A stretch of 64,000 nucleotides of DNA from Pocillopora damicornis (Eukaryota). Shown here in pieces: positions 57,001 through 63,000 of the stretch; within the stretch, counting starts at the first letter, position 1, and every line of letters starts with the position of its first letter. Made by a program: the position numbers. The stretch spans positions 1-64,000 of the forward strand of contig NW_020847369.1 of NCBI RefSeq assembly GCF_003704095.1. The letters run 5' to 3'.

Positions 57001-60000
57001 CAGTTTAGGTAAATCCTTCCCATGGCCTTCAGCGCTTTGGTCTTCGGAGAAGACGAGTTTCATATCCAGATCCAGAGACGACATTTGAATCCTTATCGCA
57101 TATTCCTGTACCAAAGTCAAAGTTTCATGAAAAACAAATAGGTAACTTGAACTGCGGGTTAAAATATACTCGAGAGGTCTTTGACAGTTAAAACTCACTT
57201 GCCCCCCCCTTTCTTTTTTTACTTTCAGATCCTTAATTGCAAGGAACTTCCAGAATCAAATTGTAGTCAATTGTAGTCAAAAAGAAATAAACCCCTACCC
57301 TTCCCCCCTCCCCCCTCCCCGAGTTTCATGAAAAACAAATAGGTAACTTGAAATGCGGGTTAAAATATACTGGAGAGGTCTTTGACAGTTAAAACTCACT
57401 TCCCCCCCCCCCTTTTTTTTACTTTCAGATCCTTTATTGCAAGGAACTTCCAGAATCAAATTGTAGTCAAAAAGAAATAAACTAAATTTGCTCTTCAAGC
57501 TTTCAGATCTTAAATCAAATTTCACTCTAACCCCAAGTTCAATCTTAACCCAGCTTTGAACAACTCGGCCCAGACTGTTAAGTAAAATTCAAAATGGCGA
57601 AGTCTTAAGTCCAAAATTCGAAAACATTCTTTTTGTTGTTTTCTTTTCTTTTAACTCTCGTCAAATCCGGGAGGAATTTGTTCCTCTTTTTACTTAAAGT
57701 ATGCCTTATAAAAACAATTACATCATTCATCAGAGTTATTTTTCTGTAATTAATCAACCTTATCGTTCCAAGTTCCGACCACGGACGTTTCTTCTTTAAA
57801 ATCTTTGAGAGATAGCTCTCGCCATTCATTGACTTGAAAATTGTTTGAGAAGAGAAAAAAATAAAATATAGTTATCACCAGCAATATCATCAGCATAGCG
57901 TGTTGCTATTTTGCATTGCAAAATGTGGATGATATGAAATATAGCCGTTTTGAAAATATGAAATTTTTTCTTTGGTGATTTGCAACAAAACCCTTTGGGT
58001 CAAACAAAGTAAAAACAAAAAAAGAAGAAGTAAAACAGTGGATTATCTTAATGAGTAAGAGGTGACGGAGCGCGTGCTTCAAAAATAACTTAGAGCCGTT
58101 TAGTGCGCACGTGCTCTCGGCGCTGGCTGGCGCGTAATACCAGCTGAATTACTATGGCAACTGCAAACTCGTTTGTAACTTGCAAAAGGTTTTGAAAAGT
58201 CTGAAAAATTAACCGTTGGCAAAGCACCCCTTGAGTTTTTGTCAAGGCTGTTCTGAATATTCTCACTTGTAGGAAATGAACACCCGGTAAAACAGTTATT
58301 TCCTTGGGGAAAGAAAGAGGCTTAAAACTGTTTCATTAAAACGTGGCGGAAAAATTTTGGTGCGGGGAAAGTAGAAACCCTTGAAATCCTCTTTATAAGG
58401 GAATGAATCTTACCGTCTTGTTTCACAGATTGTGCAGCTTTCGTCAACGAAAGCAGTAATGCCGACGCAATGAGCAATTTCATTATTCTCTTCATGGTAA
58501 CGATGTTTTTTTTCCTCTCGCCAAAAAACAGCGCTCGGCTTGGTTCCGCGAAACAGACTAAAATATTGACGTCATAGTCGTGGCTTAACACGCTATATCT
58601 TGCGCGAGACAGCGCGAGACAACATCATATCAGTCGTCATTCAATATATATATCAATCGTCAAGTCTCGAGTCGCACTAAAAACGAGTAAGACTGGATCC
58701 CAAATAAACCCAACATCCAATATGGCGGATAGTCCAGAAGCAAAGTTGATGAGAGGACTGGAGTCACTAGATGTTAAAATTTCACAGACTCTATACGAGG
58801 TATTATCGCTCAACATTTCCGTCAGTTAAGGGTTCTGATGTTAAAATGTACCCTCTATGGTTGTAGATAAAAGAACTGGAAGTTACAAACCACGAACTCA
58901 GCTGTCTACAACCGAAAAAGGTTTGTAATTCAGCTGTATATTCGTCTACGACAGTGTTTCCCCTTTTTGCTATGTTGACAAGATATGTCTTATTCGTTTT
59001 ATTTAAAGAGAGTATTCACAAGGCAAGGACCTGGGAATGTGTTTTTTCTTTCTGATCGTGCACTCGTGGTTGGCCAGTTTAAAAGTAAGTATAAACGCGC
59101 GTAACTTGTTAAGATTCCTGTTAAGTTTTACAAAACTTAACAGGAATCAACCCTTCTACCTCTAAGATCTGATTAGTTGAAGAGTGCTTAGATCACCCAG
59201 TCACCTGATGGGTTTGTCAGCTCTCAACACACGTTGGAAGATTTGTTTTCTTAGCCCATAATTTCCTTCTTCAAGTTATTTCCTACTTAAGTAAGATCAA
59301 CAGAGAGTTATTGTACTTTTATACACAGAGAAATTTAATAATCCTTTTCAGTGATGTTGTTAATTAATTTAAGGTGAAATAAACTTCTTGTAGATTGAAA
59401 TTTGGGCGAGTTTATCATCACAATGACCATACATGGCTTCAATTAATGCCTATCATGATACAAGTAATCAAAACAATCATAGCATACTATATGCAAAGCT
59501 TCCTTTATTTACAGAATGGTTTCAACCTGAAAATGAATTTAAACAGAATTTGAAAGTACCTGAGCAATTATACTGTCTAATTATAAAGATAATGGAGTAG
59601 AATAGTCTCTTTGACTTCATCTTTATCAGGCTTAGATTTGTTGATATTCTAAGTAGAAGTTGCACATTAATCACATTTGAAAAATGAATTTTTGTCCTAT
59701 CTTTCTGTGAATGACTACCTCAGGTTGTTAACCCTTTAATTCCCAGAAGTGATTGGGAGGTAACCTCTCCCTATAATATCCATACACCGTTCAGCAAACA
59801 GGTAATGAGAATTTTAAAACTTATCATGTAGAAGATGTTATTATTGATCTAATACCAAATTCTCTAATTGATTGAAAAGGAAATGTATAGCAGCTAGAGA
59901 GGAGAATTAAAAATCAGATCTTGGGAGTTAAAGGGTTAGGGATTGAGAGAAGTTTGACTGCAAATAGAGACACAAAAGTGAGTTGAGCTTTGTTTGCAAA

Positions 60001-63000
60001 TGTATGAGTTGAAGTATTTTGTTTATATTCCAGAAAAGCTTGAAGATGCTAAGAAAGATTTAGAAGAGCTTAACAGGCAAAAGCAAGATGCTGTCTGATC
60101 TTAGCTAGAATTCTTGCTATCAGTCAGTGAACAATGAGATGCTACTTAACACGGAATTAATTTTCCCTATCAGTCAGTCTGATCAGTCGCTGGATCCCTT
60201 TAAATGAAAGTGTGCAGGAATTCTGATACTATCTCACAAGAGGGCGACAAAAGGGTTTAGATTTAGGTTTAAAGTGTTAGCCCATTAGTGAAGGCATTGA
60301 ACTAGTGAGATATCTAGTTGAAGAAGAGAAAAATTGAACCCAAGGAAAGTTTTCTTTATTGATGAATGAAAAAAAACTGGATCCACACATCCCTGAAACA
60401 AGTTGTAAAGTGTATTGGTAGTAAGGCTCAAGATAATAAATGTGTTGAATCATTACAAGAACAAACAATGGGGATAGCTCATATATATATGTAGCTCATA
60501 TAAATATGTTTTCTGGGTCTAAACAATTAATTCTTGCTCTGTTGCATGTGCAGTGAGTCAACTGTTTTGTTTTCTATCAGTCTGAAAGTAGTTAAGTTAT
60601 ATTAACTTTGAACTTTTCAAAAGGCAAGATTCTCAAGAATATTCTACAATGAAAAATATCTGCATCAAATTTGTACTTAACAGTTGCTTGTTTCCTACAT
60701 TTTTCATGATAATTATGTATTTTTTTCTTGTAGAGGTGTACTATTGAAATGTATTTGTTATTCTGTGAGAAATATTATTAAATTAAAAATGTACATTTGA
60801 GAGGAATATTTTGCCTTGCATTTTTGAATTTAAAGCAGAACTTTGTGTTATGGAGATTTGAATTTATTTTATTTTTGTATGAAACTTGTATTGAAACATG
60901 TAAGCAAGAGATAGAAAAAAGAAGGATTCATTATAGATCATTCTCTTTCTCTGATCTTTACTTATGTCAAGTTTTTTTTTGAAGATTCACTTTTTAAAGT
61001 CTTGATCTACCACGTTCTTTATGCTCTCCAACTAAAGCGAGCCGAAAAAAAAAAAAAAGGCCCCTACCTTCCCCTCCCTTACCATTTTAAAACAGCTTTC
61101 TACGATTTACTTCCGGTCACGTGTTTTTTCGCTCTCCAATGAAAGGTAACCACGCTTCCTCGAAACCGGTAGTGAAAAAATCCTCCAGATGGTTTCTGGC
61201 GATGTTGAAGCTGGAAACTCACTATCTTCTGAATCGAAAATGGCTCCGTATGTTACAGATAGAAAGAAATTAATAGTGTGTTTCTTGGGAATATTTATAT
61301 CGTACTTTTACTACGGAATTATACAAGAGAAAATGTGAGTATTGGTCACCTAACTATGAGATAACTTTCTTCGATCTTTCACACGCAAGTCTTCAACTAC
61401 TTTTGAAAAAAATTGATTAATTTCTAGGAATTTCATCGCCATTCACTCATCAAAGAACCAGTGCGGTATTCCTTCTTCTTAAATTTTCCCAATCGCACGA
61501 ACCAATGTCTGTATTTTTTAATCTCTTTACAATGATAGTTCGTAGTTTTATACCAATATTCAATGGTTGACTTCCTAATTGTGATTACTCTCGGGAATTG
61601 TGGTTTAAAGTTACGTAAGATATTTTTGTTGAACTGGGATCCAAGGCTTATGAGTTCTTTTGTGATCAAGCCTAGAATATTTCTCGAAGTCTGAGGATAG
61701 CCTGTTTAAGGTTTTGTCCTTTTATTTTCATGTCCTAATTCAATATACGTGTTATATTCTCGGACAGAACAAGAACATCTTATGGCGAAGACAAAGAGAA
61801 ATTTGTGTATGCTCTCTCATTGGTCTTTGTTCAGTGCATTGTGAATGCACTTTTTGCTAAAACAGGTAGGTTGACAGTGTTTCATGAAGTGAAAGATAGT
61901 TGCAGTGATTTTTGCCAAAGGAACGAATGTGTACTTCAAATATTTTTGCATCTGTGATCCATTAACCTTTCACTCTTGGGATCGAAAATCAATTCTTCAC
62001 TTTGTTAACAATATATTTATTTCAATTTTTGCCCGGAAAATGTGGTTTTAAGTAAAAAAAAATATATCTTCAAATGTTTATTTCTTATCACCTCGCTTGA
62101 AAATTTTTTAATACTCTCGAGGATAAATTCCTCTTTTTATCACTTTATTTATTAGAGAATTTCCACACAAGGTCAAAAATTTCTGATTAATAAGAAAACT
62201 CTCCTCATGGATTTATCAGTCTGACTCACCAGTTTAGAAAAATGCTAAACAACCAAAATAATCAGGAGGATGGTGAACTAATTATGCTGCTCTTGATCTG
62301 TTTTAGTTATCCAACTGACGTACAGAAATGAAGCTAAGGATACAACTCCATTCTGCTGGTATGGGATCTGTGCTACAACCTATATTGGTGCAATGCTGGC
62401 CAGTAATAAGGCTCTTCAGTGGGTGAACTATCCAACTCAGGTTAGTATAAATTCCTCTTGATCAATCCTTGCAATACGATCGCTTATTTTGTTTCAGTGA
62501 CTCAGTTTTCATAGGCTGAGAAAATATTCACTTTGATGCAAAAAATGTTGCTTGAAAAAGCCAGGTTGCAAGGGTCACCATATATTTCAAATTTAATCTG
62601 ATAAACTCTAATAATTCTTTTTACTATTTTCCATGAAGTGAAACTTAATCATAATTTTGTTTTGCTGGTAGGTCTTAGGGAAGTCATGTAAACCTATTCC
62701 AGGTGAGTGATAACATAGAGCAGGTATTGTCATTGATTAGGAATGAATTGATGTACATACTAACTTTAATTGCAGATAAAATATGACAGTTTAGAAAGAG
62801 GAGAATTTTGTTGTAGTTTAAATTGATCTGAGTCGAAACATTTTTTCATGGCTGTATTTGTGATAAATTGTCACAATTCTTAATCAAAGAAAGCTACAAA
62901 CTAACCTTATACCTACCAATCATGACTGAACTATGCCACTTGAGTCTGACAGCCAATAACATCACAGCAAAACTGACCAATCAATTCATACAAACTGGAC

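What the first reader, a model, noticed from the sequence alone, without database searches (positions are those of the whole stretch)
58722..60098. Stand-alone ASDURF-like microprotein gene uncoupled from ASNSD1
A 90-aa four-exon gene invisible to the ORF track. Established: human ASDURF is a beta-prefoldin-like subunit of the PAQosome, translated from an upstream ORF of the ASNSD1 mRNA. Here no ASNSD1 sequence follows. The next gene, 1.1 kb downstream on the same strand, is SLC35B1 with its own promoter-like motifs. Inference: the bicistronic arrangement is not universal, and an independent gene may be ancestral or secondarily split. Read-through into SLC35B1 is also possible.
Basis: partly seen in the sequence, partly recalled or inferred. 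Interest (0 to 1): 0.65.

Follow-up and report, generated by a model that had tools for sequence, protein, structure and literature searches.

The report
Stand-alone coral ASDURF-like prefoldin gene
This is a real four-exon gene in a stony coral for a 90-residue prefoldin-like microprotein of the ASDURF family; here it is a separate gene rather than an upstream reading frame of ASNSD1, an arrangement already known from plants.

Summary
Four exons (58722-58799, 58867-58920, 59009-59084, 60034-60098, + strand) have GT..AG borders and give 90 codons. A public 90-aa protein, P0001, was found using only the reading frame around exon 3. It lines up with all four exons, with 88 of 89 whole-codon residues identical.

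P0001 passes the curated cut-off of Pfam PF21975 (ASNSD1 upstream ORF protein), 33.4 bits. It passes the general beta-prefoldin family almost equally, 33.0 bits. It folds as helix, beta-hairpin, helix.

No asparagine-synthetase domain was found in the 64 kb window. The next gene on the same strand, 1.1 kb downstream, is SLC35B1-like.

- Orthologues are already deposited for Pocillopora, Oculina, Porites and Montipora as unnamed small proteins.
- A stand-alone ASDURF gene (At1g49245) with complex-membership data is in print for Arabidopsis.

This is a new member of a known kind. Three things stayed unchecked: the transcript's 3' end, where ASNSD1 lies in this genome, and whether the protein joins the complex.

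The parts
58496..58721 (.). Candidate shared (bidirectional) promoter. It lies between a minus-strand signal-peptide-like first exon and the ASDURF-like ATG. It carries TGACGTCA at 58567, GCGCGAGA at 58602 and 58612, and a TATA-like run at 58645.
   Evidence: Motif positions are and the sequence. Promoter function is inferred, not shown.
58722..58799 (+). Coding exon 1 (ATG, 26 codons).
   Evidence: Identical to P0001 and P0003 at 26/26 residues.
58867..58920 (+). Coding exon 2 (18 codons, phase 0-0). It is missing from the deposited Pocillopora damicornis model.
   Evidence: Identical to P0001 at 18/18 residues. Profile hit E 5.7e-6.
59009..59084 (+). Coding exon 3 (25 codons plus 1 base). 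It encodes the beta-hairpin and the most conserved motif.
   Evidence: Profile hit E 5.8e-11. Sub-threshold PF21975 hit at profile positions 48-73.
59149..59937 (.). Element inside intron 3 bounded by 26-nt inverted repeats (81% complementary). It looks like a small non-autonomous transposon and accounts for most of the 949-nt intron.
   Evidence: pair I1. The class of the element was not tested.
60034..60098 (+). Coding part of exon 4 (2 bases plus 20 codons plus TGA).
   Evidence: Identical to P0001 at 20/20 residues.
60099..60805 (+). Candidate 3' untranslated region, with poly(A) signals AATAAA at 60435 and ATTAAA at 60777 and 60782.
   Evidence: With an assumed transcription start near 58680, the mRNA would be about 680 or about 1,020 nt. 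The end point is inferred, not shown.
61240..64000 (+). Next gene on the same strand, SLC35B1-like (UAA transporter family). It runs off the end of the window.
   Evidence: PF08449 hits on pieces 62297-62458 and 63520-63705. Human SLC35B1 chains at E 3.5e-11. ETS-like and E-box motifs at 61110 and 61118.

Best explanation
This is a stand-alone, most likely monocistronic, gene of a scleractinian coral (Pocillopora damicornis or a very close relative). It encodes the orthologue of ASDURF, the small beta-type prefoldin-like protein.

Inferred mechanism: the 90-residue chain folds into two long helices joined by one beta-hairpin. The hairpin would join the beta-barrel of a six-subunit prefoldin-like module, and the helices would form one tentacle. 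In humans and Arabidopsis that module is URI, UXT, PDRG1, PFD2, PFD6 and ASDURF, and it works with the R2TP/HSP90 co-chaperone to assemble large protein complexes.

Expression would start from a short promoter of its own, shared head-to-head with the upstream gene, and end about 0.4-0.7 kb after the stop codon, before the SLC35B1-like gene.

What is shown: the gene model, family membership by profile score, the predicted fold, and the absence of ASNSD1 in the window. What is inferred: the transcript ends, complex membership and function.
For: Gene model:
- GT..AG borders and a continuous frame.
- P0001, found with the exon-3 frame alone as the only hit among 4 candidates (E 7.1e-8), is collinear with all four exons, with 88/89 whole-codon residues identical.
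- Relatives from other corals are 73% (Oculina), 60% (Porites) and 48-53% (Montipora) identical to P0001.

Family:
- PF21975 ASNSD1-SEP at 33.4 bits against a cut-off of 27.
- 10 of 10 members of alignment A3 match PF21975 at E <= 0.01.
- The exon-3 piece alone has PF21975 as its only hit up to E 10 (E 0.18).
- The coral profile aligns with the Brassica pair at 97.4% probability, E 8.9e-12.
- No significant sequence match to any solved prefoldin. The best is human PFDN1, E 0.32.

Fold:
- AlphaFold model with pLDDT 87: helix 5-38, strands 45-49 and 56-60, helix 61-89.
- Foldseek puts beta-prefoldins first: 1fxk_B TM 0.86, human PFDN1 TM 0.80.

Context:
- 0 of 343 translated pieces match an asparagine-synthetase domain. 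These were 277 pieces covering the whole window (all frames of 55 aa or more), plus 66 pieces, nearly all of 25-54 aa, downstream on the + strand and upstream on the - strand.
- The SLC35B1-like gene follows on the same strand.
- Poly(A) signals lie 337 and 679 nt after the stop.
- The clusters of P0001 and P0006 sit on contigs of 1,130 and 967 nt. These are too short for a second cistron.
- All 18 library hits at E <= 0.001 are 54-104 aa, with no fused form.

Function in relatives: passages read.
Against: - The general beta-prefoldin family PF01920 scores almost the same (33.0 bits). 10 of 10 aligned relatives match it too.
- UniRef's automatic names for two coral orthologues are 'Prefoldin subunit 1' and 'Prefoldin subunit 6'.
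- Searched exon by exon, the window's own pieces do not reach any Pfam cut-off. The family call therefore rests on P0001, which differs from the window at one residue.
- No vertebrate ASDURF sequence was compared directly.
- No RNA evidence for the 3' end was available. Contig lengths are only weak evidence.
- Where ASNSD1 lies in this genome is unknown.
- Complex membership is untested for any cnidarian.
Confidence: 0.8

Rival explanations
1. It is a divergent canonical beta-prefoldin (a PFDN1-like paralogue) or a PDRG1-type protein, not an ASDURF orthologue.
For: - PF01920 scores 33.0 bits against 33.4 for PF21975.
- UniRef names two coral orthologues 'Prefoldin subunit 1' and 'Prefoldin subunit 6'.
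- The closest human chain by fold is PFDN1, TM 0.80.
- The first protein-atlas hit is an archaeal prefoldin-beta cluster, score 0.89.
Against: - Sequence similarity to human PFDN1 is not significant (E 0.32; profile E 0.24). PFDN2, 4 and 6 chains were not hit at E <= 10. A true orthologue of a canonical subunit should match strongly; that expectation is from general knowledge, not tested here.
- The family-specific model PF21975 is passed by 10 of 10 relatives.
- Chordate ASNSD1-SEP clusters are among the nearest atlas clusters, scores 0.89 and 0.86 (a lead only).
- PDRG1 itself could not be compared because no PDRG1 sequence was in hand.
Confidence: 0.1
2. The reading frame is the upstream cistron of a read-through transcript that also carries the SLC35B1-like coding sequence. 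That would be a different bicistronic partnership.
For: - Both genes are on the same strand, with only 1.1 kb between the stop codon and the next ATG.
- No transcript-end data were available.
- AWTAAA motifs are no more frequent in the window than expected by chance: 227 found against 232 expected. The poly(A) signals after the stop therefore prove little.
Against: - The contigs behind P0001 and P0006 are 1,130 and 967 nt. Both fit the roughly 1,020-nt mRNA predicted for the ATTAAA signal at 60777. Both are too short for a second cistron.
- ETS-like and E-box motifs lie 120-130 nt before the SLC35B1-like ATG.
Confidence: 0.07
3. Transcripts splice onward from this locus into an ASNSD1 gene beyond the window, so the coupling is kept.
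For: The window ends 3.9 kb after the stop codon. The rest of the genome could not be searched.
Against: - The SLC35B1-like gene fills the same strand from about 61.2 kb to the window's end. An onward splice would have to span it.
- The stop codon lies in an exon that is followed by poly(A) signals.
- The contig lengths are short.
Confidence: 0.02
4. The four pieces are a chance arrangement or a dead gene.
For: No single piece reaches a Pfam cut-off on its own.
Against: - The four pieces are the top four of 3,486 and lie in collinear order.
- A spliced public record matches them.
- The protein is conserved across five coral genera.
- The frame and the splice sites are intact.
Confidence: 0.01

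Closest known systems
[quoted passage not shown]
   Same: - Same Pfam family above cut-off.
- Similar size: 90 aa here against 96 aa.
- Both are spread over four coding exons (passage read).
- Beta-type prefoldin architecture (passages).
   Different: - The human protein is translated from the 5' leader of the ASNSD1 mRNA. Here no ASNSD1 sequence lies in the window, and an SLC35B1-like gene follows instead.
- No human sequence was used, so identity and intron positions were not compared.
Arabidopsis ASDURF, At1g49245 (annotated 'Prefoldin chaperone subunit family protein')
   Same: - It is a small gene of its own, not a leader reading frame.
- It is co-purified with UXT, URI, PFD2, PFD6 and PDRG1 (passages).
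- Brassica relatives of the same Pfam family align with the coral profile at 97.4% probability and 38% identity over 58 columns.
   Different: - It is a plant protein of about 77 aa, with a hairpin loop two residues shorter.
- That the Brassica proteins are orthologues of At1g49245 is my inference.
- The coral protein has no interaction data.
Canonical prefoldin beta subunits (PFDN1 above all; Pfam PF01920)
   Same: - Same fold: TM 0.80 to human PFDN1 and 0.86 to an archaeal beta subunit.
- PF01920 passed at 33.0 bits.
- Passages say ASDURF has been suggested to replace PFDN1 in alternative prefoldin complexes, and the Arabidopsis protein was modelled on PFD1.
   Different: - No significant sequence similarity (E 0.32 and 0.24).
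- Shorter than the solved chains (90 aa against 101-122 aa).
STREMI-SLC35A4 and other human two-protein transcripts
   Same: ASDURF-ASNSD1 is listed with them as a conserved bicistronic transcript. For STREMI-SLC35A4 the paper proposes two once-independent genes joined by retroposition (passages). This is a model for how the vertebrate ASDURF-ASNSD1 pair could have arisen from the stand-alone state seen here.
   Different: No such origin has been shown for ASDURF-ASNSD1. It is an analogy only.

Membership tests
ASDURF / Pfam PF21975 (ASNSD1-SEP) | Score at or above the curated Pfam cut-off (27 bits) | tested here: met
   P0001, which has 88/89 whole-codon residues identical to the window's exons, scores 33.4 bits, E 4.8e-8. 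10 of 10 members of A3 match at E <= 0.01. Exon by exon, the window's pieces stay below the cut-off (exon-3 piece 12.4 bits). The joined product was not built.
ASDURF / Pfam PF21975 (ASNSD1-SEP) | Beta-type prefoldin architecture: one beta-hairpin between two long helices, in a protein of about 90-100 aa | tested here: met
   AlphaFold model with pLDDT 87: H5-38, E45-49, E56-60, H61-89. Beta-prefoldins are the top Foldseek matches. This is a predicted structure, not a solved one.
ASDURF / Pfam PF21975 (ASNSD1-SEP) | Encoded as an upstream reading frame of the ASNSD1 mRNA. This gives the vertebrate protein its name; it does not hold for the plant member. | tested here: not met
   0 of 343 translated pieces of the window match an asparagine-synthetase domain. 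The next same-strand gene is SLC35B1-like. Sequence beyond the window was not testable.
ASDURF / Pfam PF21975 (ASNSD1-SEP) | Subunit of the prefoldin-like module with URI, UXT, PDRG1, PFD2 and PFD6 | not tested
No complex prediction was sent.
ASDURF / Pfam PF21975 (ASNSD1-SEP) | Closer to ASDURF than to PFDN1, 2, 4, 6 or PDRG1 in a tree | not tested
Canonical prefoldin beta subunit (Pfam PF01920; PFDN1, 2, 4, 6) | Score at or above the curated cut-off (27.6 bits) | tested here: met
   33.0 bits, E 6.2e-8. This is a general family that also takes in prefoldin-like proteins.
Canonical prefoldin beta subunit (Pfam PF01920; PFDN1, 2, 4, 6) | Clear sequence orthology to one of the four canonical subunits | tested here: not met
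   Against all PDB chains, only PFDN1 appears, at E 0.32 (single sequence) and E 0.24 (profile). PFDN2, 4 and 6 were not listed at E <= 10. Those chains are present in 6nr8.
PDRG1 | Sequence similarity to PDRG1 | not tested
   No PDRG1 sequence or named PDRG1 hit came up in any call.

The most novel reading that the evidence does not exclude
The stand-alone, four-exon ASDURF gene seen in corals (and as a stand-alone gene in plants) is the ancestral state. In vertebrates the so-called 5' leader of ASNSD1 would then be the old ASDURF gene itself, and the ASNSD1 coding sequence would have been added to it later. Retroposition is one possible route, as proposed for SLC35A4 in the STREMI locus. On this reading ASDURF is the host gene and ASNSD1 the newcomer.
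Probability: 0.45. Interest if true: 0.5.

Novelty: new member of a known kind. Interest (0 to 1): 0.3.

Why it matters
ASDURF is a standard example of a functional protein hidden in a human 5' leader. A correctly modelled cnidarian orthologue that stands alone adds an animal data point to the plant one. It suggests the two-protein ASDURF-ASNSD1 transcript is a later, lineage-specific joining and not an old feature of the gene.

There are two practical points.
- The deposited Pocillopora damicornis model lacks the 18-codon exon 2, and the coral orthologues are unnamed or carry inconsistent automatic names. They can now be annotated as ASDURF-like.
- It gives coral and sea-anemone laboratories a candidate sixth subunit to look for in the prefoldin-like module.

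Tried and rejected
- Exon-by-exon Pfam search gave almost nothing: the exon-3 piece hit PF21975 at E 0.18, exon 1 had a chance-level hit to a bacterial toxin family at E 0.089, and exon 4 had no hit. Exon 2 (18 aa) is too short to send.
The 41-aa stop-to-stop frame around it was sent instead.
- PDB sequence searches with P0001 and with profile A3 found no chain named ASDURF and nothing significant.
- The protein atlas gave scores under 0.9, which are leads only.
- A whole-window scan for AWTAAA was uninformative: 227 matches against 232 expected.
- One literature search was badly framed and returned 10,668 papers, none of the 15 listed holding 'ASNSD1'. Cloutier et al. 2020 is not held.
- No complex prediction was sent, because no partner sequences from a coral were in hand.
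- The 13 unnamed library hits (P0010, P0011, P0013-P0023) and P0025-P0032 were not fetched. Their origin is unknown and some could be vertebrate.
- A chance reading frame and a pseudogene were considered and rejected.
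Full report
WHAT IS THERE. Between 58722 and 60098 on the + strand lie four short coding exons.
- Exon 1: 58722-58799, 26 codons. The ATG has A at -3 and G at +4.
- Exon 2: 58867-58920, 18 codons.
- Exon 3: 59009-59084, 25 codons plus one base.
- Exon 4: 60034-60098, two bases, 20 codons and TGA.
- The three introns (67, 88 and 949 nt) all begin with GT and end with AG.

No single reading frame carries the gene. In the stop-to-stop list the exons sit in pieces of 83, 62, 41 and 38 aa, so it is indeed invisible to an ORF list. The window has two N runs (20696-20795, 21386-22074), which I left alone.

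HOW IT WAS SEARCHED. I searched the model exon by exon and never built or submitted the joined product.
- Pfam on the separate pieces gave only one relevant hit. [quoted passage not shown] The score was E 0.18 and 12.4 bits, below the cut-off of 27.
- The bare exon 3 was too short for the large protein search. The 41-aa frame was accepted and returned one protein among four candidates: P0001, 90 aa, E 7.1e-8.
- P0001 matches the four exons 26/26, 18/18, 24/25 and 20/20 at positions 1, 27, 45 and 71. It has lysine at position 70, where the split codon A|AA falls.
- Because it runs straight across the three junctions, the 1,130-nt contig behind it must lack the introns. My inference is that it is an assembled transcript.
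- As a check that does not use P0001, a profile of nine relatives was run over all 3,486 six-frame pieces of the window. It ranks the four exon-bearing pieces first to fourth (E 5.8e-11, 5.7e-6, 3.6e-4, 0.27), in collinear order. The fifth piece is at E 0.75.

WHOSE GENOME.
- The named protein P0003 (hypothetical protein pdam_00005748, Pocillopora damicornis, 72 aa) is identical to exons 1, 3 and 4 at 26/26, 25/25 and 20/20 residues, but lacks exon 2.
- The window is therefore from P. damicornis or a very close relative (inference; lineage). The deposited model skipped the 18-codon exon.
- Other relatives come from Oculina patagonica (73% identical to P0001), Porites lobata (60%) and Montipora foliosa and M. 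capricornis (48-53%). All are deposited as hypothetical, unnamed or uncharacterized small proteins.

WHAT FAMILY.
- P0001 passes PF21975 at 33.4 bits (E 4.8e-8, cut-off 27). It passes the general beta-prefoldin family PF01920 at 33.0 bits (cut-off 27.6), which is a near tie.
- All 10 members of alignment A3 match both families at E <= 0.01.
- What separates the protein from the canonical subunits is the lack of real sequence similarity to them. Against every PDB chain the best hit is human PFDN1 at E 0.32 (profile: archaeal beta subunit 0.13, PFDN1 0.24). PFDN2, 4 and 6 do not appear at E <= 10. No chain named ASDURF was found.
- UniRef's automatic names for two coral orthologues, 'Prefoldin subunit 1' and 'Prefoldin subunit 6', disagree with each other.
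- Beyond corals, the first named relatives are two 77-aa Brassica carinata proteins. Their precomputed Pfam labels are PF21975 plus PF01920 for P0033 and PF01920 alone for P0034; in my own scan both match both families. They align with the coral profile at 97.4% probability, E 8.9e-12.
- A full scan of 1.84 billion representatives found 18 proteins at E <= 0.001. All are 54-104 aa, so no fused long form is seen. I did not fetch the 13 unnamed ones, because their origin is unknown.
- The protein atlas gave archaeal prefoldin-beta and chordate ASNSD1-SEP clusters at 0.89 and 0.86, which are leads only.

FOLD. With the ten-sequence alignment, AlphaFold gives pLDDT 87 and pTM 0.68: helix 5-38, strands 45-49 and 56-60, helix 61-89. 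Foldseek against the PDB puts beta-prefoldins first:
- archaeal 1fxk_B: TM 0.86, rmsd 0.8
- human PFDN1: TM 0.80
- human PFDN2, 4 and 6: TM 0.71-0.75

The most conserved stretch, invariant through corals and Brassica, is the G-N-x-F-F-L segment of the second strand.

CONTEXT.
- I scanned 277 stop-to-stop pieces against Pfam: all 275 of 55 aa or more in the window, plus two shorter ones.
- I then scanned 66 further pieces, nearly all of 25-54 aa: 41 on the + strand downstream of 60099 and 25 on the - strand between 55.6 and 58.7 kb.
- None matches an asparagine-synthetase or glutamine-amidotransferase domain.
- The next gene on the same strand matches the UAA transporter family. One of its exons matches human SLC35B1 chains at E 3.5e-11. 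Its candidate ATGs are at 61189 and 61240, 1.1 kb after the stop codon, and ETS-like and E-box motifs lie just upstream of them.
- Upstream, a signal-peptide-like first exon on the minus strand starts about 226 bp from the ASDURF-like ATG. The spacer carries TGACGTCA, two GCGCGAGA copies and a TATA-like run. That this is a shared promoter is inference.
- After the stop there are poly(A) signals at 60435 and at 60777/60782. With an assumed start near 58680 the mRNA would be about 680 or about 1,020 nt. This fits the 1,130- and 967-nt contigs of P0001 and P0006. That agreement is suggestive only, because such hexamers are not enriched in this AT-rich window.

WHAT IS KNOWN. I saw passages only, not whole papers.
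- It is counted as the twelfth PAQosome subunit (PMC9406135; PMC9776223).
- ASDURF-ASNSD1 is listed among conserved human two-protein transcripts. For another such pair the authors propose joining of two independent genes by retroposition (PMC13303939).
- In Arabidopsis the ASDURF orthologue is a gene of its own, At1g49245. It is recovered with UXT, URI, PFD2, PFD6 and PDRG1 by affinity purification (bioRxiv 10.1101/2023.12.13.571423; PMC10893143; 10.1101/2024.03.27.587014).
- An Exaiptasia proteome paper lists a protein called ASNSD1. Anthozoans therefore probably have that gene elsewhere in the genome.
- I found no text on a stand-alone ASDURF in cnidarians or other invertebrates. The searches were those (57 papers, 25 listed; 5; 2; 20, 15 listed; 2; 2; 20, 19 listed). 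I read passages from 12 of those papers.
- Cloutier et al. 2020 is not held and supplements were closed. An invertebrate alignment may exist there.

HOW IT MOST LIKELY WORKS. By analogy with the human and plant proteins, the coral protein would be the small beta-type subunit that completes a two-alpha, four-beta prefoldin-like hexamer. Its hairpin would sit in the central barrel and its paired helices would form one tentacle. The module would serve the R2TP/HSP90 assembly chaperone. The fold is predicted here. The partnership and the function are inferred.

RIVALS.
- A divergent canonical prefoldin or PDRG1-type protein: about 0.1.
- An upstream cistron of a read-through transcript with the SLC35B1-like gene: about 0.07.
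- Onward splicing to an ASNSD1 gene beyond the window: about 0.02.
- A chance frame or a dead gene: about 0.01.

LEFT UNCHECKED.
- The rest of this genome, because no eukaryotic genome collection was on hand.
- The metagenome and viral contig collections, which were closed.
- The cluster details of P0001 (switched off).
- Any direct comparison with a vertebrate ASDURF, a canonical coral prefoldin or PDRG1.
- The transcript ends.
- Binding to partner subunits.

VERDICT. The finding is correct and well read, but it is a new member of a known kind. The gene is already deposited, mis-modelled or unnamed, in several corals, and a stand-alone ASDURF is in print for plants. Its value is as an animal data point for the idea that the vertebrate ASDURF-ASNSD1 transcript is a derived joining.

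Noticed in passing
window 58867-58920: The deposited Pocillopora damicornis protein pdam_00005748 (72 aa) equals exons 1, 3 and 4 but lacks the 18-codon exon 2. That exon encodes part of helix 1, including a motif conserved in all corals. Skipping it keeps the frame, so the cause could be an annotation error or a minor splice form.
   Followed up: partly
window 59113-59937 (intron 3): There is a perfect 17-nt hairpin at 59113-59148. A pair of 26-nt inverted repeats (59149-59174 and 59912-59937, 81% complementary) bounds about 790 nt, like a small non-autonomous transposon. This explains why intron 3 is so much longer than introns 1 and 2.
   Followed up: no
window 58414-58495, minus strand: A signal-peptide-like first exon (ATG, hydrophobic stretch, GT donor) lies head-to-head with the ASDURF-like gene, about 226 bp between the two ATGs. 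It has no Pfam match and its gene was not identified.
   Followed up: no
window 60109-60178: There are two copies of a 20-nt direct repeat (85% alike, sharing CTATCAGTCAGT), 50 nt apart, just after the stop codon in the presumed 3' untranslated region.
   Followed up: no
window 22125-26535, minus strand: Two neighbouring genes have two-pore-type potassium channel domains (Ion_trans_2, E about 1e-22 each, on pieces 22125-22865 and 24985-25683). They look like a tandem pair. The first lies right after an N run.
   Followed up: no
window 9613-16088, plus strand: A multi-exon sodium:solute symporter gene: seven pieces match PF00474 in collinear profile order, positions 65 to 397.
   Followed up: no
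window 28631-30071, minus strand: An AlkB-like 2OG-Fe(II) oxygenase gene: two pieces match PF13532, the better at E 5.8e-22.
   Followed up: no
window 55575-57588: A repeated element upstream of the gene: similar translated stretches recur at 56932-57255 and 57295-57588 on the minus strand, with mirrored copies on the plus strand at 57163-57276 and 57364-57480. A similar stretch also appears at 55575-55631.
   Followed up: no
window 1033-1887, 40491-41207, 43026-43691, 54841-55563 (all minus strand): Four long open frames (285, 239, 222 and 241 aa) have no Pfam match at E <= 0.01. They could be coral-specific genes or transposon remains.
   Followed up: no
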